Source: Escherichia coli
Lineage (GTDB): Bacteria > Pseudomonadota > Gammaproteobacteria > Enterobacterales > Enterobacteriaceae
Length of the DNA: 64,000 bases
Assembly (NCBI RefSeq): GCF_003334765.1
Contig: NZ_QOWT01000014.1
Direction: 5' to 3' (one strand)
Shown here piece by piece: positions 25,555 to 52,844 of the stretch (its first letter is position 1; each line of letters opens with the position of its first letter). Both the position numbers and the translations under genes were made by a program. The notes beneath the pieces are model-generated. The model did no database searches. It was not told where the DNA came from and saw nothing but the letters and a program-made list of their open reading frames with translations.

Positions 25555-25654
25555 CATATTGCTGACAAAGTGCGCTTTGTCCATGCCGGATGCGGCGCGA
25601 ACGCCTTATCCGGCCTACAAAAGTTTGCAAATTCAATAAATTGCAGAATTCATG
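25555..25654. repeat. REP pair with AT-rich central spacer (BIME-1/RIP-type)
   Basis: TGCCGGATGCGGCGCGAACGCCTTATCCGGCCTAC ... GTAGGCCTGATAAGCGAAGCGCATCAGGCA. Confidence 0.85.
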
Positions 25655-25738
25655 TAGGCCTGATAAGCGAAGCGCATCAGGCATTTTTGCTTCTGTCATC
25701 GGTTTCAGGGTAAAGGAATCTGCCTTTTTCCGAAATCA

Positions 25739-26881: not shown

Positions 26882-27784
26882 TTATGAAAGCATAGACCGT
26901 TTACCCTCCCTGGGTACGACGGAACAGGGGTCCTGATGGATAATTACATCCGATCCCGGAAAACGCCGTAAAATAGCCTGCTCTACCTGATCCGCCACCA
27001 TATGTGCCTGAACCAAAGGCAGAGAGTCTTCCATTTCCAAATGAATCTGAATAAAGCGGGTCGGCCCTGACTGCCGCGTGCGAAGATCGTGAGCGCCGCT
27101 AACACCCGGCCAGGAAGTCACGATATCAATAATTTCTTGCCGTTCCTCATCAGGCAATGCGCGATCCAGTAATGACTGTACCGCCTCATATCCCATGCGT
27201 AACGCGCTATATAAAATATAGATGCCGATTCCCAATGCAAACAGAGCATCGGCGCGATGCCAGCCGTACCAGGACAACCCCAGCGCCAGCAGAATTGCGC
27301 CGTTCATCATAACATCAGACTGGTAATGTAGCATATCAGCCCGCACCGCCTGGCTTTGCGTCCGCCGCACCACCCAACGCTGAAACGAGACAAGGATAAT
27401 CGTACAAATTAGCGCCACAATTGTCACGATAACCCCGACGCCTGGATCTGTCATCGGTGTTGGAGATATCAGATGTTGAATACCCGTCAAAAACAGGAAT
27501 AGTGCCGAACCGGAGATAAACATACTTTGCGCCAGCGCCGCGAGGGACTCAGCTTTACCGTGACCAAACGAGTGATTATCGTCGGCAGGTTGCAGGGAAT
27601 ATCGCACCACCAATAAATTCGTCAACGACGCGCCGATATCCACCAGCGAATCCACCAGCGCGGCGAGAATACTCACCGACCCGGTATACCACCATGCAAA
27701 AATTTTAATCAGCAATAGCAGCGAAGCCATCGCCGTCGCAGCAATCGCCGCCCGACTGACCAGCCGTCCATAAGATTGATTCAT
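26882..27784 (-). CDS. fieF: cation-diffusion-facilitator Fe/Zn efflux transporter FieF (YiiP)
   Basis: Track ORF 306 aa; ATG at 27784 gives 300 aa [35 protein letters not shown]. Confidence 0.92.
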
Positions 27785-27865
27785 AAATACTCCCGCTATC
27801 AACTGACGCTAGTATAACGGAAGCAAATCATCTGCAATGCATTAAGCAGCAGGCAAATTGAGGAT

Positions 27866-27923
27866 AAAAAAAACCCCCACAGCATGTGGGGGAAGACAGG
27901 GATGGTGTCTATGGCAAGGAAAA
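27866..27923 (-). ncRNA. cpxQ: CpxQ sRNA, processed from the cpxP 3'UTR; includes the cpxP intrinsic terminator
   Basis: Minus strand reads TTTTCCTTGCCATAGACACCATCCCTGTCTTCCCCCACATGCTGTGGGGGTTTTTTTT, matching my memory of CpxQ; terminator CCCCCA-CATGCT-GTGGGGG then T8. Confidence 0.75.
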
Positions 27924-27932
27924 CAGGGTTTA

Positions 27933-28433
27933 CTACTGGGAACGTGAGTTGCTACTACTCAATAGCTTCAACGATGAACTTTTTTGCCATTGCGTCACGT
28001 CACGCAACTGCTCCATTCGTTGTTGATGTTTCTCGTTTAAAACCGCTTGCTGCTCCGGCGTTAACAGGCGATACATTTGGTTGCGGACTTTTGCCATCTC
28101 AACCTGACGAGCAATTTGCTCATTCGCCATTTTTTCTGCCTGTGCGCGCACAGCGTTTTCATCAAAATTTTCTGCGGTGACAAGGCGATGCATTGTCTCC
28201 AGTTCGCTAACATTAACAGGAGGCTGTTCGTGCCGGGCCTGTTGCATAAGATCTCGCATCTGCTGACGCTGATGTTCGGTTAAACTTATGCCGTCGAACA
28301 TATGGCTCTGCGTACTGCGCTGCGTAAGTTCTTCACCCGGATGCCAGTTATCGCCTGAACCGACTTCAGCAGCGTGGCTTAATGAACTGACTGCCAGCGT
28401 TGAGGCCATGACGGCAGCGGTAACTATGCGCAT
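27933..28433 (-). CDS. cpxP: periplasmic Cpx-pathway inhibitor/chaperone CpxP
   Basis: 166 aa from second [28 protein letters not shown]...; LTxxQ motifs. Confidence 0.94.
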
Positions 28434-28512
28434 CATTTGCTCCCAAAATCTTTCTGTCGCGATTCAACGATAGAGAGTTTACGATTCAGGCTGCAAACAT
28501 GCGTCAGGGGGT

Positions 28513-28527
28513 GTAAAACAACGTAAA
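28513..28527. promoter_or_regulatory. CpxR box in divergent cpxP/cpxRA control region
   Basis: GTAAA-ACAAC-GTAAA matches CpxR consensus GTAAA-N5-GTAAA. Confidence 0.8.
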
Positions 28528-28582
28528 GTCATGGATTAGCGACGTCTGATGACGTAATTTCTGCCTCGGAGGTATTTAAACA

Positions 28583-29281
28583 ATGAATAAAATCCTGTTA
28601 GTTGATGATGACCGAGAGCTGACTTCCCTATTAAAGGAGCTGCTCGAGATGGAAGGCTTCAACGTGATTGTTGCCCACGATGGGGAACAGGCGCTTGATC
28701 TTCTGGACGACAGCATTGATTTACTTTTGCTTGACGTAATGATGCCGAAGAAAAATGGTATCGACACATTAAAAGCACTTCGCCAGACACACCAGACGCC
28801 TGTCATTATGTTGACGGCGCGCGGCAGTGAACTTGATCGCGTTCTCGGCCTTGAGCTGGGCGCAGATGACTATCTCCCGAAACCGTTTAATGATCGTGAG
28901 CTGGTGGCACGTATTCGCGCGATCCTGCGCCGTTCGCACTGGAGCGAGCAACAGCAAAACAACGACAACGGTTCACCGACACTGGAAGTTGATGCCTTAG
29001 TGCTGAATCCAGGCCGTCAGGAAGCCAGCTTCGACGGGCAAACGCTGGAGTTAACCGGTACTGAGTTTACCCTGCTCTATTTGCTGGCACAGCATCTGGG
29101 TCAGGTGGTTTCCCGTGAACATTTAAGCCAGGAAGTGTTGGGCAAACGCCTGACGCCTTTCGACCGCGCTATTGATATGCACATTTCCAACCTGCGTCGT
29201 AAACTGCCGGATCGTAAAGATGGTCACCCGTGGTTTAAAACCTTGCGTGGTCGCGGCTATCTGATGGTTTCTGCTTCATGA
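28583..29281 (+). CDS. cpxR: envelope stress response regulator CpxR (OmpR family)
   Basis: 232-aa ORF MNKILLVDDDRELTSLLKELLEMEGFNV...; receiver plus winged-helix domains. Confidence 0.97.
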   Translation: MNKILLVDDDRELTSLLKELLEMEGFNVIVAHDGEQALDLLDDSIDLLLLDVMMPKKNGIDTLKALRQTHQTPVIMLTARGSELDRVLGLELGADDYLPKPFNDRELVARIRAILRRSHWSEQQQNNDNGSPTLEVDALVLNPGRQEASFDGQTLELTGTEFTLLYLLAQHLGQVVSREHLSQEVLGKRLTPFDRAIDMHISNLRRKLPDRKDGHPWFKTLRGRGYLMVSAS

Positions 29282-30651
29282 TAGGCAGCTTAACCGCGCG
29301 CATCTTCGCCATCTTCTGGCTGACGCTGGCGCTGGTGTTGATGTTGGTTTTGATGTTACCCAAGCTCGATTCACGCCAGATGACCGAGCTTCTGGATAGC
29401 GAACAGCGTCAGGGGCTGATGATTGAGCAGCATGTCGAAGCGGAGCTGGCGAACGATCCGCCCAACGATTTAATGTGGTGGCGGCGTCTGTTCCGGGCGA
29501 TTGATAAGTGGGCACCGCCAGGACAGCGTTTGTTATTGGTGACCACCGAAGGCCGCGTGATCGGCGCTGAACGCAGCGAAATGCAGATCATTCGTAACTT
29601 TATTGGTCAGGCCGATAACGCCGATCATCCGCAGAAGAAAAAGTATGGCCGCGTGGAACTGGTCGGTCCGTTCTCCGTGCGTGATGGCGAAGATAATTAC
29701 CAACTTTATCTGATTCGTCCGGCCAGCAGTTCTCAATCCGATTTCATTAACTTACTGTTTGACCGCCCGCTATTACTGCTGATTGTCACCATGTTGGTCA
29801 GTACGCCGCTGCTGTTGTGGTTGGCCTGGAGTCTGGCAAAACCGGCGCGTAAGCTGAAAAACGCTGCCGATGAAGTTGCCCAGGGAAACTTACGCCAGCA
29901 CCCGGAACTGGAAGCGGGGCCACAGGAATTCCTTGCCGCAGGTGCCAGTTTTAACCAGATGGTCACCGCGCTGGAGCGCATGATGACCTCTCAGCAGCGT
30001 CTGCTTTCTGATATCTCTCACGAGCTGCGCACCCCGCTGACGCGTCTGCAACTGGGTACGGCGTTACTGCGCCGTCGTAGCGGTGAAAGCAAGGAACTGG
30101 AGCGTATTGAAACCGAAGCGCAACGTCTGGACAGCATGATCAACGATCTGTTGGTGATGTCACGTAATCAGCAAAAAAACGCGCTGGTTAGCGAAACCAT
30201 CAAAGCCAACCAGTTGTGGAGTGAAGTGCTGGATAACGCGGCGTTCGAAGCCGAGCAAATGGGCAAGTCGTTGACAGTTAACTTCCCGCCTGGGCCGTGG
30301 CCGCTGTACGGCAATCCGAACGCCCTGGAAAGTGCGCTGGAAAACATTGTTCGTAATGCTCTGCGTTATTCCCATACGAAGATTGAAGTGGGCTTTGCGG
30401 TAGATAAAGACGGTATCACCATTACGGTGGACGACGATGGTCCTGGCGTTAGCCCGGAAGATCGCGAACAGATTTTCCGTCCGTTCTATCGTACCGATGA
30501 AGCACGCGATCGTGAATCTGGCGGTACAGGTTTGGGGCTGGCGATTGTTGAAACCGCCATTCAGCAGCATCGTGGCTGGGTGAAGGCAGAAGACAGCCCG
30601 CTGGGCGGTTTACGGCTGGTGATTTGGTTGCCGCTGTATAAGCGGAGTTAA
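29278..30651 (+). CDS. cpxA: envelope stress sensor histidine kinase CpxA
   Basis: 457-aa ORF; H-box SHELRTPLTRL; start overlaps cpxR stop by 4 bp (ATGA). Confidence 0.97.
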   Translation: MIGSLTARIFAIFWLTLALVLMLVLMLPKLDSRQMTELLDSEQRQGLMIEQHVEAELANDPPNDLMWWRRLFRAIDKWAPPGQRLLLVTTEGRVIGAERSEMQIIRNFIGQADNADHPQKKKYGRVELVGPFSVRDGEDNYQLYLIRPASSSQSDFINLLFDRPLLLLIVTMLVSTPLLLWLAWSLAKPARKLKNAADEVAQGNLRQHPELEAGPQEFLAAGASFNQMVTALERMMTSQQRLLSDISHELRTPLTRLQLGTALLRRRSGESKELERIETEAQRLDSMINDLLVMSRNQQKNALVSETIKANQLWSEVLDNAAFEAEQMGKSLTVNFPPGPWPLYGNPNALESALENIVRNALRYSHTKIEVGFAVDKDGITITVDDDGPGVSPEDREQIFRPFYRTDEARDRESGGTGLGLAIVETAIQQHRGWVKAEDSPLGGLRLVIWLPLYKRS

Positions 30652-30663
30652 ACTTCGCATTTG

Positions 30664-30746
30664 CAGGCAGGATAAGGCGTTTACGCCGCATCCGGCATTT
30701 GAGCAGGATGCCTGATGCGACGCTGATAGCGTCTTATCAGGCCTAC
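30664..30746. repeat. REP pair downstream of cpxA
   Basis: AGGATAAGGCGTTTACGCCGCATCCGGCA ... GCCTGATGCGACGCTGATAGCGTCTTATCAGGCCTAC. Confidence 0.85.
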
Positions 30747-39533: not shown

Positions 39534-39753
39534 CTGCCGGATGCGGCGCGAGCGCCTTATCCGGCCTACGGGTCGGCAACAGTTGTAGGCCTGATAAGAC
39601 GCGACAGCGTCGCATCAGGCATTGATTGCCGGATGCGGCACAAGTGCCTTATCCGGCCTACAGGTCGGCAATAGTTGTAGGCCTGATAAGACGCGACAGC
39701 GTCGCATCAGGCATTGATTGCCGGATGCGGCGCGAGCGCCTTATCCGGCCTAC
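39534..39753. repeat. BIME: five alternating REP units in rhaA-rhaD spacer
   Basis: CTGCCGGATGCGGCGCGAGCGCCTTATCCGGCCTAC alternating with inverted GTAGGCCTGATAAGACGCGACAGCGTCGCATCAGGCA; about 80-bp unit repeated nearly identically. Confidence 0.9.
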
Positions 39754-46011: not shown

Positions 46012-47067
46012 TTAACGCAGGCTATTATAGTCATCAACCATTTCGTTGTACTCGCGTAATGCTCTCGGGAAAGAGTCTTCGACCATCCAGCTTGAGTTTG
46101 CGTCCTGAAGTTGCTCTTTATCCCAGTCAGAGTACGGGACTTTATCTCTGATGCGGCGAACGTATTTTTTAGCCTCGAGTTGATACTGGCCTGCCGAATT
46201 AATAAACGAGAAATTCATGCCGCCTTTATCCGCTTCTTTGGCCTGCGCCACTAGCGTTTCCAGTTCAGACACTTTCTTCATTGCCGCTTCTGCATCAAAC
46301 TTATCTTGCGATATCAGGTTATTAATTTGTTTCGCTGAAATCATGACTGCCAGAGAGTAGTAGTGGAATGTTTTCCCTTCTCTTTCTTCAATATTTTTCA
46401 GTTCCGCAAGCTGACGCTTATCATTAATTTCCTGAATCGCCGCATGATAAGATTCGGCTACAGGTTCAAAGGCTTCCAGATTTTTTAAGAATGTCTGGTG
46501 CAGCGTTTTCCCTTTCGCAAACGCATCGTCTTTATAATTTTCCTGGGTGTAATATTTATCCATTTCGTTAATGGTATTACCCAACGCCACGGCAGCATCG
46601 ATATAACTCACCGCCACGCCATCAATTGGTTGCAGCGCAGGCGTTAACGCCACAGCACTTTTTACGCCTTTTTCACACTCAGCGAGGTTGGATTCACTAA
46701 TGCCGTAGATGCCATAAACAGTACGCTCTTCACCGGTAGGCCCCTGTTTAAAATCTTTCAGCCAGTCAGCATAACGCGCCAGACTGCGCTGTACCGGGAT
46801 CTGTAACTTGTTGTAGCACTTGATATAGACATCCATTTTTTCGTCGAAAACCGCTTGTTCATCGACCACCGGTTGCGCAGGTGTTTCAGGTTTAGCTTCT
46901 GCTTTTGCAACGGGAGCTTCAGTAGGTTTCGCTTCAGGAGCTGGTGCGGCAGGTTGACTATTGGCAGGCGGGAGCGTTTCTGTTTCGGCTTTTTTATCAT
47001 CACAACCCGTCAGACCGAGGGACATGATGGCGACTATAATAGCGGAAGATAATAAATTCCTTTTCAT
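46012..47067 (-). CDS. yiiG: YiiG, predicted lipoprotein of unknown function
   Basis: 351-aa ORF with lipoprotein signal MKRNLLSSAIIVAIMSLGLTGC; Pro/Ala/Glu-rich linker. Confidence 0.88.
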   Translation of the reverse strand: MKRNLLSSAIIVAIMSLGLTGCDDKKAETETLPPANSQPAAPAPEAKPTEAPVAKAEAKPETPAQPVVDEQAVFDEKMDVYIKCYNKLQIPVQRSLARYADWLKDFKQGPTGEERTVYGIYGISESNLAECEKGVKSAVALTPALQPIDGVAVSYIDAAVALGNTINEMDKYYTQENYKDDAFAKGKTLHQTFLKNLEAFEPVAESYHAAIQEINDKRQLAELKNIEEREGKTFHYYSLAVMISAKQINNLISQDKFDAEAAMKKVSELETLVAQAKEADKGGMNFSFINSAGQYQLEAKKYVRRIRDKVPYSDWDKEQLQDANSSWMVEDSFPRALREYNEMVDDYNSLR

Positions 47068-47176
47068 TTAATTGCCTTATAAATATATAGATAAGAGAGT
47101 GAACATAATAAATGAAAAAAGAAAACGCCACTACACGCATTTTGTTTATAAATAAAATAATAAAATTCACGAAATG

Positions 47177-47217
47177 AATAAGTCCTGCAATTTAATATAT
47201 TTCGCAGGACTTATTTT
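47177..47217 (-). terminator. candidate terminator hairpin after fdhD
   Basis: AATAAGTCCTGC-(15 nt loop)-GCAGGACTTATT immediately downstream of fdhD stop. Confidence 0.45.
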
Positions 47218-47219
47218 AA

Positions 47220-48053
47220 TTAATTGCTCAAACGCTGCGGATGGGTATAAACCGTTGCCCGACCCGGTTTACAAAAACCTACCAGTGTCAGATTACAGCG
47301 CTCAGCCACTTCTACAGCAAGCGTGGTCGCGGCAGACACCGCAAACAAAATCTCTACGCCGCACATCGCCGACTTTTGCACCATTTCATAACTGGCACGA
47401 CTGGAAACCAGTACCGCACCTTGCTGCCAGCTTTCCCCTTCTTGTGACCGGCGGCCTAACAGTTTGTCCAGCGCCACATGGCGACCCACGTCTTCATGCC
47501 CGCCGACCAGTTCGCCAGATGGCAACATCCAGGCAGCGGCGTGAGTACAACCAGTCAGTTGCCCCACTGGCTGAAAATCGTTGAGATGACGTAATGCATC
47601 ATCCAGTTTGTTGAGATCAAACGTCTGGGTGAACGGTAGCGGCTGCACCGGTTTTCCGATGTCATTAAGTTGCTCCACGCCGCATACGCCACAGCCCGTA
47701 CGTCCCGCCAGCGCCCGGCGGCGCTCCTTCAACCCCATAAAGCGGCGGCTGGAAAGCTCAATTTGTACTTCAAGACCATTACAGGAAGGAACGACATCCA
47801 TGCCGAAGATATCGCGCGGACTTTCGATAATCCCCTCGGAAAGCGAAAAACCGAGCGCAAAGTACTCAAGGTCTTTGGGCGACGCCATCATCACCACATG
47901 CGAAATGCCGTTGTAGACCAGCGCAACGGGAACTTCTTCCGCGACCTCATCTAACCGTGGGTGTTGTAAATCATCACGCCGCCATAACTCAATTTGACGA
48001 ACACCTGTGATATTTGTCACATTTTCGATTTCTTTTCGCTGTGTTTTTTTCAC
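47220..48053 (-). CDS. fdhD: formate dehydrogenase sulfurtransferase/accessory protein FdhD
   Basis: 277-aa [40 protein letters not shown]. Confidence 0.95.
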
Positions 48054-48246
48054 TTTCTCTTAACCAGATAAGAACACACACACCAACATTATGGTATTCT
48101 GTTACAAACCCTTCCTGGATGGAGGGAAATTGAGCCAATTCTGGACCTTTGCGGCCCCTTCCGCAAAGAAAAATAACTCCCACTCCCTGCACACGCAGCA
48201 AGCGAATGTAAATGGGACGTGACAATGTCGAAACAAGGAGCAATCC

Positions 48247-51200
48247 ATGCAGGTCAGCAGAAGGCAGTTCTTTAAGATCTGCGCTGGCGGTATGGCAGGC
48301 ACCACGGCAGCGGCACTGGGTTTTGCACCCAGCGTAGCACTCGCGGAAACCCGGCAGTATAAACTGCTGCGCACCCGCGAAACCCGTAATACCTGCACCT
48401 ATTGTTCCGTAGGCTGTGGGCTGTTGATGTACAGCCTCGGTGACGGAGCAAAAAACGCCAAAGCATCTATCTTCCATATCGAAGGCGATCCGGATCACCC
48501 GGTCAACCGCGGTGCACTTTGTCCGAAAGGCGCTGGCCTGGTGGATTTCATCCACTCCGAAAGCCGTCTGAAGTTTCCGGAATACCGTGCGCCAGGTTCT
48601 GATAAATGGCAGCAAATCAGTTGGGAAGAGGCGTTTGATCGCATCGCCAAACTGATGAAAGAAGACCGCGATGCTAACTACATTGCGCAAAACGCCGAAG
48701 GCGTGACTGTTAACCGCTGGCTCTCCACCGGGATGCTGTGTGCTTCCGCGTCGAGTAACGAAACCGGCTATTTAACGCAAAAATTCTCCCGCGCGCTGGG
48801 TATGCTCGCGGTCGACAACCAGGCGCGTGTCTGACACGGACCAACGGTAGCAAGTCTTGCTCCAACATTTGGTCGCGGTGCGATGACCAACCACTGGGTC
48901 GACATCAAGAACGCCAACCTCGTCGTGGTGATGGGCGGTAACGCCGCTGAAGCTCACCCGGTCGGGTTCCGCTGGGCGATGGAAGCCAAAATTCACAACG
49001 GCGCGAAGCTGATTGTGATCGATCCTCGCTTTACGCGTACGGCGGCGGTAGCTGACTACTATGCCCCTATTCGTTCCGGTACTGACATTGCTTTCCTGTC
49101 AGGCGTATTGCTGTACCTGCTGAACAATGAAAAATTCAACCGCGAATACACCGAAGCCTATACCAACGCCAGCCTGATCGTGCGTGAGGATTACGGCTTT
49201 GAAGATGGCCTGTTCACCGGCTACGACGCGGAAAAACGCAAGTACGATAAATCCTCCTGGACTTATGAACTGGACGAAAACGGCTTCGCCAAACGCGATA
49301 CCACGCTGCAACATCCGCGCTGCGTGTGGAACTTGCTGAAACAGCACGTTTCCCGCTACACGCCAGATGTGGTTGAAAACATCTGTGGTACGCCAAAAGA
49401 CGCGTTCCTGAAAGTCTGCGAATACATCGCAGAAACCAGTGCTCACGATAAAACTGCCTCGTTCCTGTATGCCCTCGGCTGGACGCAACACTCCGTTGGT
49501 GCGCAAAACATTCGTACGATGGCGATGATCCAGCTGCTGCTCGGCAATATGGGGATGGCAGGCGGCGGCGTTAACGCCCTGCGCGGTCACTCCAATATTC
49601 AGGGGCTGACGGACCTGGGGCTGCTGTCGCAGAGCCTGCCAGGTTACATGACGCTGCCAAGCGAGAAGCAGACCGATCTGCAAACCTACCTTACCGCCAA
49701 CACGCCAAAACCGCTGCTGGAAGGCCAGGTAAACTACTGGGGCAACTACCCGAAATTCTTCGTCTCTATGATGAAGGCCTTCTTTGGTGATAAAGCGACG
49801 GCGGAAAATAGCTGGGGCTTTGACTGGTTGCCGAAGTGGGATAAAGGCTACGACGTCCTGCAATACTTCGAGATGATGAAAGAGGGCAAGGTCAATGGCT
49901 ATATCTGCCAGGGCTTTAACCCTGTTGCCTCATTCCCGAACAAAAACAAAGTGATCGGTTGTCTGTCGAAACTGAAGTTCCTCGTCACCATCGACCCACT
50001 GAACACTGAAACCTCTAACTTCTGGCAGAACCACGGTGAGCTGAACGAAGTTGACTCGTCGAAGATCCAGACCGAAGTGTTCCGTCTGCCATCGACCTGC
50101 TTCGCGGAAGAGAACGGTTCTATCGTTAACTCAGGTCGCTGGTTACAGTGGCACTGGAAAGGTGCGGACGCCCCGGGGATTGCGCTGACTGACGGCGAGA
50201 TCCTCTCCGGTATCTTCCTGCGCTTGCGCAAGATGTATGCCGAACAGGGTGGCGCGAACCCGGACCAGGTGCTGAACATGACATGGAACTACGCCATTCC
50301 GCATGAGCCATCTTCAGAAGAAGTGGCGATGGAGAGCAACGGTAAGGCGCTGGCCGATATTACCGATCCGGCAACCGGTGCGGTTATCGTCAAGAAAGGC
50401 CAACAACTTAGTTCGTTCGCCCAATTGCGCGATGACGGTACAACCTCCTGTGGCTGCTGGATTTTCGCCGGTAGCTGGACGCCGGAAGGCAACCAGATGG
50501 CACGCCGTGATAACGCCGATCCGTCTGGCCTCGGTAACACGCTGGGCTGGGCATGGGCATGGCCGCTTAACCGCCGCATTCTGTATAACCGCGCCTCCGC
50601 AGATCCGCAGGGTAACCCGTGGGATCCGAAGCGTCAGTTGCTGAAATGGGACGGCACTAAGTGGACCGGCTGGGATATTCCGGACTACAGCGCAGCGCCT
50701 CCGGGTAGCGGCGTCGGGCCGTTTATCATGCAGCAGGAAGGCATGGGGCGTCTGTTTGCCCTCGATAAGATGGCGGAAGGTCCGTTCCCGGAACACTACG
50801 AGCCGTTTGAAACGCCGCTGGGAACTAACCCGCTGCATCCAAACGTTATCTCGAACCCGGCTGCACGTATCTTTAAAGACGACGCCGAAGCATTGGGTAA
50901 AGCCGATAAGTTCCCGTATGTCGGAACCACCTATCGTCTGACCGAGCACTTCCACTACTGGACCAAACACGCGCTGTTGAACGCGATTTTGCAGCCAGAG
51001 CAGTTTGTGGAAATCGGGGAGTCGCTGGCGAATAAACTTGGCATTGCCCAGGGCGATACCGTGAAAGTCTCCTCCAACCGTGGCTATATCAAAGCCAAAG
51101 CGGTGGTGACCAAACGTATTCGCACGCTGAAAGCGAACGGCAAAGATATCGATACCATCGGTATTCCGATTCACTGGGGCTATGAAGGCGTAGCTAAAAA

Positions 51201-51297
51201 AGGCTTTATTGCCAATACTTTAACGCCATTCGTTGGTGATGCGAACACGCAGACGCCGGAGTTTAAGTCCTTCCTTGTGAATGTGGAAAAGGTGTAA
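48247..51297 (+). CDS. fdoG: formate dehydrogenase-O major subunit; selenocysteine encoded by in-frame TGA at 48832-48834
   Basis: Two track ORFs (48247..48834 and 48883..51297) are in the same frame, separated by a single TGA; Tat signal MQVSRRQFFKICAGGMAGTTAAALG; joined length 1016 aa. Confidence 0.93.
48835..48875 (+). promoter_or_regulatory. SECIS-like hairpin directing Sec insertion at fdoG UGA
   Basis: Imperfect stem-loop GGTAGCAAGTCTTGCTCC immediately 3' of the UGA; fold not verified. Confidence 0.55.
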
Positions 51298-51309
51298 CGG
51301 AGACGACAT

Positions 51310-52212
51310 ATGGCTTATCAATCTCAAGATATCATTCGTCGTTCCGCGACTAACGGTCTGACCCCCGCGCCTCAGGCGCGGGACTTCCAGGAAGAAGTGG
51401 CGAAACTCATCGACGTTACCACCTGTATCGGCTGTAAAGCCTGTCAGGTGGCGTGTTCAGAGTGGAACGACATTCGCGATACCGTCGGCAATAACATTGG
51501 GGTGTACGACAACCCCAATGATTTAAGCGCCAAATCGTGGACGGTAATGCGCTTCTCGGAAGTGGAGCAGAACGACAAACTGGAATGGCTGATCCGCAAA
51601 GACGGCTGTATGCACTGTTCCGATCCAGGCTGCCTGAAAGCGTGCCCGGCGGAAGGTGCAATTATTCAGTATGCCAACGGTATCGTCGACTTCCAGTCCG
51701 AGCAGTGCATTGGCTGCGGTTATTGCATTGCGGGCTGTCCGTTCGACATTCCGCGCCTCAACCCGGAAGACAACCGCGTCTACAAATGTACGCTGTGCGT
51801 TGACCGCGTGGTGGTTGGGCAAGAACCAGCCTGCGTGAAGACCTGCCCAACGGGCGCGATTCACTTCGGTACGAAAGAGTCGATGAAAACGCTGGCGAGC
51901 GAGCGCGTTGCTGAGCTGAAAACCCGCGGTTACGACAATGCGGGTCTGTACGATCCGGCAGGCGTCGGTGGTACACACGTCATGTACGTGCTGCACCATG
52001 CTGACAAGCCAAATCTGTATCATGGCTTGCCGGAGAACCCGGAAATCAGCGAAACCGTGAAATTCTGGAAAGGCATCTGGAAACCGCTCGCGGCTGTTGG
52101 CTTTGCGGCTACCTTTGCGGCCAGTATCTTCCACTACGTGGGTGTCGGTCCGAACCGTGCGGATGAGGAAGAGAATAATCTGCACGAAGAGAAAGACGAG
52201 GAGCGCAAATGA
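51310..52212 (+). CDS. fdoH: formate dehydrogenase-O iron-sulfur subunit
   Basis: 300-aa ORF with four CxxCxxCxxxCP-type ferredoxin motifs. Confidence 0.96.
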
Positions 52213-52844
52213 AACGACGTGACACCATCGTGCGCTACACCGCGCCGGAACGTATCAACCACTGGATCACCGCCTTCTGCTTCATCCTGGCGGCGGTGAG
52301 CGGGCTGGGCTTTTTGTTCCCGTCCTTCAACTGGTTGATGCAAATCATGGGCACACCGCAGCTGGCGCGAATTCTGCACCCGTTTGTCGGCGTGGTTATG
52401 TTTGCCTCGTTCATCATCATGTTTTTCCGTTACTGGCATCACAACCTAATCAATCGGGATGATATCTTTTGGGCGAAGAATATTCGTAAGATCGTCGTCA
52501 ACGAGGAAGTAGGTGACACCGGGCGTTATAACTTCGGTCAGAAATGCGTTTTCTGGGCGGCGATTATTTTCCTGGTTCTGCTGCTGGTGAGCGGCGTGAT
52601 TATCTGGCGTCCTTATTTTGCGCCTGCTTTCTCAATCCCGGTGATCCGATTCGCGTTAATGCTGCATTCATTTGCCGCAGTGGCGTTAATTGTGGTTATC
52701 ATGGTGCATATCTACGCCGCCCTTTGGGTGAAAGGCACGATTACCGCCATGGTGGAAGGATGGGTTACCAGCGCCTGGGCGAAGAAACATCACCCGCGCT
52801 GGTACCGTGAGGTCCGCAAGACAACGGAAAAGAAAGCTGAATGA
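52209..52844 (+). CDS. fdoI: formate dehydrogenase-O cytochrome b556 subunit
   Basis: 211-aa membrane [38 protein letters not shown]; overlaps fdoH stop. Confidence 0.95.

What the first reader, a model, noticed from the sequence alone, without database searches (positions are those of the whole stretch)
48832..48875. In-frame UGA (selenocysteine) and downstream hairpin split fdoG in the ORF track
The ORFs 48247..48834 and 48883..51297 share a frame and are separated only by TGA at 48832-48834, followed by a hairpin-forming sequence. This is the recoding signature of the selenoprotein formate dehydrogenase-O alpha subunit; naive ORF calling yields two fragments.
Basis: partly seen in the sequence, partly recalled or inferred. 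Interest (0 to 1): 0.3.

Follow-up and report, generated by a model that had tools for sequence, protein, structure and literature searches.

The report
Selenocysteine UGA and SECIS in fdoG
The "stop codon" that splits this gene in a naive ORF list is the well-known selenocysteine codon of E. coli formate dehydrogenase-O, read through with the help of an RNA hairpin just downstream; it is real, correctly interpreted and already textbook knowledge.

Summary
Observation confirmed and interpretation supported. The feature is already known.

- **Locus.** The window is E. coli K-12 DNA, 100% identical to MG1655 over 47000-54000. Window 48247-51297 (+) is fdoG (b3894), annotated as one 3051-nt CDS.
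- **The UGA.** TGA at 48832-48834 is codon 196, in frame with both ORF fragments. The ATG at 48883 is only an internal Met codon. The codon aligns with the selenocysteine position (residue 196) of FdnG in crystal structure 1KQF.
- **The RNA element.** Window 48829-48887 matches Rfam SECIS_3 (RF01989) at 84.3 bits (threshold 63, E 1e-19). The apical stem-loop (48846-48863) starts 11 nt after the UGA. Its bulged U (48848) and loop G-U (48854-48855) sit at the same distances from the UGA as U17, G23 and U24 of the fdhF SECIS.
- **Hairpin stability.** Stability alone is only modest (-12.7 kcal/mol, z -2.1).
- **Comparative evidence.** Ten homologues with UGA keep the element (80-84 bits) with compensatory changes. 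Two homologues with a Cys codon have lost it (35-45 bits). Across Enterobacterales fdoG and fdnG, 71 nt are invariant, including 23 of 23 third-codon positions against 21 of 77 outside.

Surroundings fit FDH-O: fdoH, fdoI and fdhE lie downstream and fdhD is divergent upstream.

The parts
48247..51297 (+). fdoG: catalytic alpha subunit of formate dehydrogenase-O. It is 1016 codons, with a Tat signal (SRRQFFK) at the N-terminus and Sec at codon 196.
   Evidence: Single-frame translation. TIGR01553 scores 1574.6 bits over the full length. 1KQF FdnG scores 1902.6 bits over 1-1015. Annotated as the single CDS b3894 in NC_000913.3.
48832..48834 (+). In-frame UGA, recoded as selenocysteine 196 (the Mo ligand). 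It is followed by C, giving UGAC.
   Evidence: It aligns with X196 of FdnG in 1KQF. Ten of 12 homologues have TGA here and two have a Cys codon, TGT or TGC.
48829..48887 (+). Full match to the bacterial SECIS family SECIS_3 (RF01989).
   Evidence: 84.3 bits, gathering score 63, E 1.1e-19, model positions 1-59 of 59.
48835..48877 (+). SECIS hairpin. The lower helix pairs 48835-48844 with 48869-48877 and carries the apical stem-loop.
   Evidence: The MFE structure equals the Rfam consensus structure apart from the two outermost pairs. Energy -12.7 kcal/mol, z -2.11.
48846..48863 (+). Apical SelB-binding stem-loop (GGUAGCAAGUCUUGCUCC). The bulged U is at 48848 (U17) and the loop G and U at 48854-48855 (G23, U24). 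It begins 11 nt after the UGA.
   Evidence: Positions computed. Pairing is 7 of 7 in all UGA-bearing homologues, with compensatory changes in 3 of 7 pairs. The requirement for U17, G23, U24 and the 11-nt spacing in the fdhF SECIS is summarised in PMC8659212.
48829..48899 (+). A 71-nt block invariant in six Enterobacterales fdoG and fdnG sequences, showing frozen synonymous sites (RNA and protein constraint together).
   Evidence: 23 of 23 third-codon positions are invariant inside the block against 21 of 77 outside, Fisher p 8e-11.
51310..52212 (+). fdoH: Fe-S beta subunit.
   Evidence: TIGR01582 scores 478.7 bits. Annotation.
52209..52844 (+). fdoI: cytochrome b556 gamma subunit.
   Evidence: NF007924 scores 453.3 bits, against 243.6 on the FdnI model NF007558.
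52841..53770 (+). fdhE: formate dehydrogenase accessory protein.
   Evidence: NF002925 scores 604 bits.
47220..48053 (-). fdhD: divergently transcribed accessory sulfurtransferase.
   Evidence: TIGR00129 scores 340 bits. Annotation.

Best explanation
Window 48247-51297 is one gene, fdoG of E. coli K-12. It encodes the Tat-exported molybdopterin catalytic subunit of the respiratory formate dehydrogenase-O.

The UGA at 48832-48834 (codon 196) is not a terminator. It is decoded as selenocysteine, the residue that ligates the molybdenum. Decoding works as in the other two E. coli formate dehydrogenases.
- The mRNA directly 3' of the UGA folds into a SECIS hairpin (48835-48877).
- The apical stem-loop of that hairpin (48846-48863; bulged U 48848, loop G and U 48854-48855) is bound by the C-terminal domain of the specialised elongation factor SelB.
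- SelB-GTP carries Sec-tRNA(Sec), the selC product charged through SerRS and SelA with selenophosphate from SelD.
- The fixed 11-nt spacer places this complex at the ribosomal A site when the UGA arrives, so it out-competes release factor 2.

Shown here: the in-frame UGA, its alignment with the Sec residue, the SECIS family match, the geometry, covariation, co-occurrence of UGA with the SECIS, and gene identity.

Inferred from established knowledge and not tested here: SelB binding and actual Sec incorporation.
For: - In-frame TGA with a single open frame across it.
- 100% identity to E. coli K-12 MG1655 over 7 kb. The region is present in 5425 of 5426 complete E. coli genomes. NC_000913.3 annotates one 3051-nt CDS, fdoG b3894.
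- The UGA aligns with X196 (Sec) of FdnG in PDB 1KQF, within the identical context [16 protein letters not shown].
- Rfam SECIS_3 scores 84.3 bits against a gathering score of 63, E 1e-19. It is the only SECIS hit in the 64-kb window.
- The element is 59/59 nt identical to the fdnG SECIS.
- U17, G23 and U24 sit at the same distances from the UGA as in fdhF. These are the reported SelB determinants, together with the 11-nt spacing (PMC8659212).
- Ten UGA-bearing homologues from gamma-, beta- and alphaproteobacteria score 80-84 bits and keep 7 of 7 apical pairs. Three of those 7 pairs show compensatory changes. The covariation score is 0.243 against 0.140 for shuffles (0 of 500 shuffles reach it) and at most 0.106 for slid controls.
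- Two homologues with a Cys codon score 44.7 and 35.4 bits, keep only 5 of 7 and 4 of 7 apical pairs, and have C instead of G23.
- Synonymous sites are frozen over 48829-48899: 23 of 23 against 21 of 77, p 8e-11.
- The literature states that all three E. coli FDH catalytic subunits, including FdoG, coordinate bis-MGD through a selenocysteine (PMC6239281).
Against: - Hairpin stability alone is unremarkable: z -1.1 for 48829-48880 and z -2.1 for 48835-48877.
- The lower helix is imperfect. Pairs 8:48 and 15:42 are often unpaired across homologues.
[quoted passage not shown] There are no tRNA genes in it, so the machinery is assumed from knowledge of K-12.
- The Enterobacterales sequences are identical in the element, so all covariation comes from the more distant alpha- and betaproteobacterial homologues.
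Confidence: 0.98

Rival explanations
1. The TGA is a genuine nonsense codon. On this reading fdoG is a pseudogene or a sequencing error in this strain, and the two fragments are non-functional.
For: A naive ORF list shows two fragments. UGA is normally a stop codon.
Against: The region is found in 5425 of 5426 complete E. coli genomes, and 5341 records are at least 99% identical around the codon. The same TGA occurs in fdnG and in homologues from Salmonella, Klebsiella, Proteus, Sinorhizobium, Ensifer, Rhizobium, Caballeronia, Paracoccus and Roseomonas. Downstream coding sequence is fully conserved. A SECIS scoring above threshold follows the codon.
Confidence: 0.005
2. Two separate genes: an N-terminal Tat-signal and Fe-S domain protein (48247-48834), and a catalytic protein initiated at ATG 48883.
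For: An ATG lies 48 nt after the TGA, in the same frame.
Against: The ATG is the conserved internal Met of GAMTNHW. The 16 codons between the TGA and that ATG are conserved coding sequence that aligns residue for residue with FdnG. Homologues with a Cys codon are continuous single ORFs. The solved FdnG structure is a single 1015-residue chain. No Shine-Dalgarno-like sequence precedes 48883 (GGUCGCGGUGCG).
Confidence: 0.005
3. The UGA is read through without selenocysteine, for example by near-cognate Trp or Cys insertion at the leaky UGAC context. On this reading the hairpin only slows the ribosome.
For: UGA followed by C is regarded as a weak termination context in E. coli (own knowledge). 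Two homologues function with Cys at this position.
Against: The hairpin keeps the specific SelB determinants (bulged U17, loop G23 and U24, 11-nt spacing), not just stability. Those features decay exactly in the homologues that use a Cys codon. The literature reports Sec as the Mo ligand in all three E. coli FDHs. Non-Sec read-through may occur as a minor side reaction but is not the function.
Confidence: 0.01

Closest known systems
E. coli fdnG SECIS (formate dehydrogenase-N alpha subunit; Rfam SECIS_3, RF01989)
   Same: The 59-nt element is identical base for base, and identity extends over 71 nt. The Sec codon number (196) and flanking peptide are the same. The operon has the same alpha, beta, gamma architecture.
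   Different: It sits in the paralogous gene. The flanking 230 nt are only 80% identical. The fdo operon also has fdhE downstream and a divergent fdhD. Regulation differs, according to the literature: fdn is induced by nitrate under anaerobiosis, while fdo is expressed at low constitutive levels and also aerobically.
E. coli fdhF SECIS (formate dehydrogenase-H; Rfam SECIS_2, RF01988), the experimentally dissected prototype
   Same: The start is the same (GUCUGACACGG). There is an 11-nt spacer, a bulged U at +17 and G and U at +23 and +24 counted from the U of the UGA. The apical GGU...CC stem and the GUC in the loop are shared.
   Different: The stem and 3' arm sequences differ. The fdoG element scores only 28.1 bits on SECIS_2 (threshold 70), and fdhF scores 35.8 on SECIS_3. 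In the fdoG fold the apical stem has one more pair and a 3-nt loop, against 4 nt in fdhF. The host protein is a cytoplasmic 715-aa enzyme and not a Tat-exported 1016-aa subunit.
Cys-type FdnG homologues (E. coli plasmid p1RM9088; Azospirillum argentinense)
   Same: The protein family and surrounding peptide motif are the same: (V/L)-C-HGPTV...FGRGAMT.
   Different: They carry TGT or TGC in place of TGA. The SECIS is degraded to 44.7 and 35.4 bits, apical pairing is lost and G23 is replaced by C. They serve as natural negative controls.

Membership tests
Bacterial SECIS element (Rfam SECIS_3, RF01989) | Score at or above the family's curated gathering threshold over the full model | tested here: met
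   84.3 bits against 63, E 1.1e-19, model positions 1-59 of 59, window 48829-48887.
Bacterial SECIS element (Rfam SECIS_3, RF01989) | Located within the ORF, immediately 3' of an in-frame UGA | tested here: met
   The UGA is at 48832-48834 and the hairpin begins at 48835, all inside the fdoG frame.
Bacterial SECIS element (Rfam SECIS_3, RF01989) | Apical stem-loop with a bulged U (U17) and loop G23 and U24, starting 11 nt after the UGA (determinants defined on fdhF) | tested here: met
   U at 48848, G at 48854 and U at 48855. The spacer is 48835-48845, which is 11 nt. The criteria come from PMC8659212.
Bacterial SECIS element (Rfam SECIS_3, RF01989) | Structure supported by covariation in homologues | tested here: met
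   In the apical helix 3 of 7 pairs show changes on both sides. Cells paired are 86.8%, against 28-49% for slid controls. The covariation score is 0.243, and 0 of 500 shuffles reach it. The sample is small, with 9 distinct sequences.
Bacterial SECIS element (Rfam SECIS_3, RF01989) | Binds SelB and directs Sec insertion | not testable with these tools
   This needs biochemistry or genetics. It is inferred from identity with the fdnG element and from shared determinants with fdhF.
Formate dehydrogenase-O alpha subunit (FdoG) | Full-length membership of the FDH-N/O alpha-subunit family | tested here: met
   TIGR01553 scores 1574.6 bits (cutoff 814.2) over residues 2-1015. 1KQF chain A scores 1902.6 bits.
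Formate dehydrogenase-O alpha subunit (FdoG) | Sec (or Cys) at the Mo-ligand position, aligned with Sec196 of FdnG | tested here: met
   Codon 196 aligns with X196 of 1KQF.
Formate dehydrogenase-O alpha subunit (FdoG) | fdo rather than fdn locus: followed by fdoH, fdoI and fdhE, with divergent fdhD | tested here: met
   FdoI model NF007924 scores 453 bits against 244 on the FdnI model. FdhE and FdhD are found in the expected places. NC_000913.3 labels b3891-b3895 accordingly. The window is 100% identical to K-12.
Formate dehydrogenase-O alpha subunit (FdoG) | Twin-arginine (Tat) signal peptide | tested here: met
   The N-terminus reads MQVSRRQFFKICAGG, which contains the S-R-R-x-F-F-K motif. 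This was read from the sequence. No predictor was run.

The most novel reading that the evidence does not exclude
The most novel reading not excluded concerns the 12 invariant nucleotides 3' of the Rfam SECIS model (48888-48899). Together with the perfect identity of the 71-nt block between the fdoG and fdnG paralogues and across Enterobacterales, they might reflect a constraint beyond SelB binding. Examples would be a second RNA or ribosome interaction that tunes Sec decoding efficiency, or recurrent gene conversion between fdoG and fdnG confined to this segment. Simple combined protein and SECIS selection would then not be the whole story.
Probability: 0.05. Interest if true: 0.35.

Novelty: already known. 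Interest (0 to 1): 0.05.

Why it matters
Scientifically this adds nothing new. FdoG is one of the three classical E. coli selenoproteins, and its UGA and SECIS are annotated in reference genomes and in Rfam.

It matters practically for the scan. It is a true positive for recoding, it shows that a split same-frame ORF pair with a conserved hairpin is a reliable signature, and it is a reminder that mechanical ORF lists fragment selenoprotein genes.

The Cys-codon homologues with a decayed SECIS, and the frozen synonymous sites, give a clear illustration of dual RNA and protein constraint.

Tried and rejected
- **Thermodynamic significance of the hairpin as the main test.** Window 48829-48880 gave z -1.08 and 48835-48877 gave z -2.11. 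This is too weak to decide, so I relied on the covariance model and comparative data.
- **SECIS_2 (fdhF-type) membership.** The score was only 28.1 bits against a threshold of 70. The element belongs to the fdnG and fdoG-type family SECIS_3.
- **Pseudogene, two-gene and non-Sec read-through readings.** All rejected (see the rival explanations).
- **Primary SECIS paper.** Liu et al. 1998 (PMC147357) is not held in the library. The determinants are cited from the review PMC8659212 instead.
- **Python analysis of L002 and L003.** It failed because those loci were not exported to /data. I used DNA alignment and pasted sequences instead.
- **Literature on an fdoG RNA thermometer in E. coli.** The search found nothing directly relevant.
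- **Selenocysteine tRNA in the window.** None is present.
- **Not used.** No large-database protein, structure or metagenome searches were run, because the answer was already unambiguous.

Full report
**1. Observation**

Reading the window at 48100-49000 shows TGA at exactly 48832-48834. The mechanical ORF list contains 48247..48834 (+, 195 aa, ATG) and 48883..51297 (+, 804 aa, ATG), and both starts fall in the same reading frame.

Translating 48247-51297 in one frame gives 1016 codons with a single internal stop at codon 196. The 16 codons between the TGA and the ATG at 48883 read [16 protein letters not shown]. The ATG itself is the Met of the conserved GAMTNHW motif, so the second "ORF" starts only at the first internal Met after the UGA.

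**2. The hairpin**

Window 48835-48877 folds into a stem-loop of -12.7 kcal/mol (z -2.11, 8 of 200 shuffles as good). The wider segment 48829-48880 gives -14.6 kcal/mol but only z -1.08. Stability alone is therefore modest evidence.

A covariance-model scan of 47000-52000 against Rfam finds SECIS_3 (RF01989) at 48829-48887. It scores 84.3 bits against a gathering score of 63, with E 1.1e-19, over the full model. It is the only SECIS hit in the 64-kb window at gathering thresholds. The fdhF-type family SECIS_2 scores only 28.1 bits (threshold 70).

The consensus structure places these parts:
- a lower helix pairing 48835-48844 with 48869-48877;
- an apical stem-loop GGUAGCAAGUCUUGCUCC at 48846-48863;
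- a bulged U at 48848;
- a GUC loop at 48854-48856.

Counting the U of the UGA as 1, the bulged U is U17 and the loop G and U are G23 and U24. The apical stem starts 11 nt after the UGA. These are the positions reported for the fdhF SECIS as the SelB determinants and the required spacing (review PMC8659212). The fdhF element from K-12, fetched here, shows U, G and U at the same offsets.

**3. Identity of the gene**

Window 47000-54000 is 100% identical to E. coli K-12 MG1655. The region is present at 80% coverage or more in 5425 of 5426 complete E. coli genomes.

In NC_000913.3 the gene is b3894 fdoG, "formate dehydrogenase O subunit alpha", a single CDS of 3051 nt. It is followed by fdoH, fdoI and fdhE, with a divergent fdhD. 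Family scans of the window's own ORFs agree:

| Gene product | Model | Score |
|---|---|---|
| Alpha subunit | TIGR01553 | 1574.6 bits, full length |
| Beta subunit | TIGR01582 | 478.7 bits |
| Cytochrome b subunit | NF007924 (FdoI-type) | 453 bits |
| Cytochrome b subunit | NF007558 (FdnI-type) | 244 bits |
| FdhE | NF002925 | 604 bits |
| FdhD | TIGR00129 | 340 bits |

The N-terminus carries a twin-arginine motif (SRRQFFK).

Against solved structures the best match is FdnG (1KQF/1KQG) at 1902.6 bits over residues 1-1015. The UGA position, entered as X, aligns with the X at residue 196 of the FdnG chain, which is the selenocysteine, within the identical context [36 protein letters not shown]. 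The next matches are Desulfovibrio enzymes named "alpha subunit, selenocysteine-containing". [quoted passage not shown]

**4. Comparative evidence**

The K-12 fdnG SECIS (L002 984-1042) is identical to the window element over all 59 nt.

Twelve homologous segments were fetched from a BLAST search of the plasmid collection. Some of those records are really chromosomes. The results:
- **UGA-bearing homologues.** Ten carry TGA at the aligned codon and score 80.3-84.3 bits on SECIS_3. They come from Salmonella, Klebsiella, an E. coli plasmid, Proteus, Sinorhizobium, Rhizobium, Ensifer, Caballeronia, Paracoccus and Roseomonas.
- **Cys-codon homologues.** Two carry a Cys codon (TGT in E. coli plasmid p1RM9088, TGC in Azospirillum). 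They score only 44.7 and 35.4 bits, below threshold.
- **Apical helix and determinants.** All UGA-bearing sequences keep 7 of 7 apical pairs plus U17, G23 and U24. The two Cys-type sequences keep 5 of 7 and 4 of 7 pairs and have C at position 23.
- **Compensatory changes.** Three of the seven apical pairs change on both sides: A-U to G-C, G-C to U-G, and C-G to A-U. In Paracoccus and Roseomonas some of these even change the encoded amino acids in a coordinated way.
- **Overall pairing.** 86.8% of cells pair, against 28-49% when partners are slid by 1-3 columns. The covariation score is 0.243, against 0.140 ± 0.023 in shuffles (0 of 500 reach it).

Among six Enterobacterales fdoG and fdnG sequences whose flanks are only 79-96% identical, a 71-nt block (48829-48899) is completely invariant. 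Inside it 23 of 23 third-codon positions are invariant, against 21 of 77 outside (Fisher p 8e-11). This is the expected footprint of an RNA structure overlaid on coding sequence.

**5. Mechanism**

Shown here: the in-frame UGA, a family-level SECIS with the right geometry, covariation, co-occurrence of the SECIS with UGA and its decay with Cys codons, and alignment with the Sec ligand of a solved paralogue.

Inferred from established knowledge of the E. coli sel system:
- SelB-GTP-Sec-tRNA(Sec) binds the apical loop through SelB's C-terminal domain.
- The 11-nt spacer positions it at the A site when the UGA is there.
- Sec is inserted in competition with RF2, and Sec196 ligates the Mo of bis-MGD.
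- The sel genes and selC are not in this window. There are no tRNA genes in it.

**6. Rivals**

A true nonsense mutation or pseudogene, two separate genes, and Sec-independent read-through are all contradicted. The evidence against them is conservation across thousands of genomes and several proteobacterial classes, continuous homology across the UGA, and the specific SECIS features, which go beyond generic stability.

**7. Novelty and verdict**

This is the textbook selenocysteine recoding site of fdoG. It is annotated in the reference genome and represented in Rfam, so it is already known. The only refinement is that "a stable hairpin" is a weak criterion here, and the diagnostic evidence is the SECIS architecture and its comparative behaviour. 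Interest is low (0.05).

The only slightly open point is why invariance extends 12 nt beyond the Rfam model and is perfect between paralogues. Ordinary protein and RNA constraint is the most likely cause, and a role for gene conversion or an additional interaction is unlikely (about 5%).

Noticed in passing
window 48040-48276 (+): There is a sub-threshold Rfam hit to RF02778, 'FdoG-1 5' UTR thermometer' (36.4 bits, gathering score 50, E 1.7e-6), over the fdhD-fdoG intergenic region and the first fdoG codons. The best-aligned part is the Shine-Dalgarno sequence, the AUG and the first codons. The upstream helices align poorly, with a 53-nt insertion. It may reflect only conserved start-region sequence and not a functional thermometer in E. 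coli.
   Followed up: partly
L001 2748-5798 (NZ_CP032667.1) and other RefSeq E. coli records: RefSeq PGAP annotation names the alpha subunit at the fdo locus 'fdnG: formate dehydrogenase-N subunit alpha' in the listed RefSeq E. coli genomes. The reason is that the equivalog model TIGR01553 carries that name. NC_000913.3 names the same gene fdoG. This is a systematic naming ambiguity between the two paralogues.
   Followed up: partly
L008 (NZ_CP042296.1, E. coli plasmid p1RM9088, CDS 26888-29938): E. coli IncF conjugative plasmids carry an fdnG-like gene that is 70% identical in DNA. It has a Cys codon (TGT) where fdoG has UGA, and a decayed SECIS (44.7 bits). It is presumably a selenium-independent FDH alpha subunit carried on a mobile element.
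   Followed up: partly
L005 (CP125156.1) and L007 (NZ_OL790812.1): Two records in the plasmid collection are chromosome-sized: 5.37 Mb for Klebsiella pneumoniae and 4.09 Mb for Proteus mirabilis. They are evidently chromosomes labelled as plasmids.
   Followed up: no
window 30666-30743 (+), 39588-39658 (-), 39680-39750 (-), 25620-25661 (+), 6226-6267 (-): These are Rfam gathering-level hits to naRNA4 (CssrE) and ES036 (CssrF), which I take to be REP-type repeat families in intergenic regions of the window.
   Followed up: no
window 11911-11968 (+) and 7247-7299 (-): The ClpQY (hslVU) promoter element (63.6 bits) and the L31 ribosomal-protein leader (60.1 bits) were detected at gathering level. 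Both are expected features of this K-12 region.
   Followed up: no
window 48888-48899 (+): Invariance among Enterobacterales fdoG and fdnG sequences continues 12 nt past the 3' end of the Rfam SECIS model, over the sequence CAACCACTGGGT that encodes part of TNHWV. It is probably protein constraint plus chance, but it was not tested separately.
   Followed up: partly
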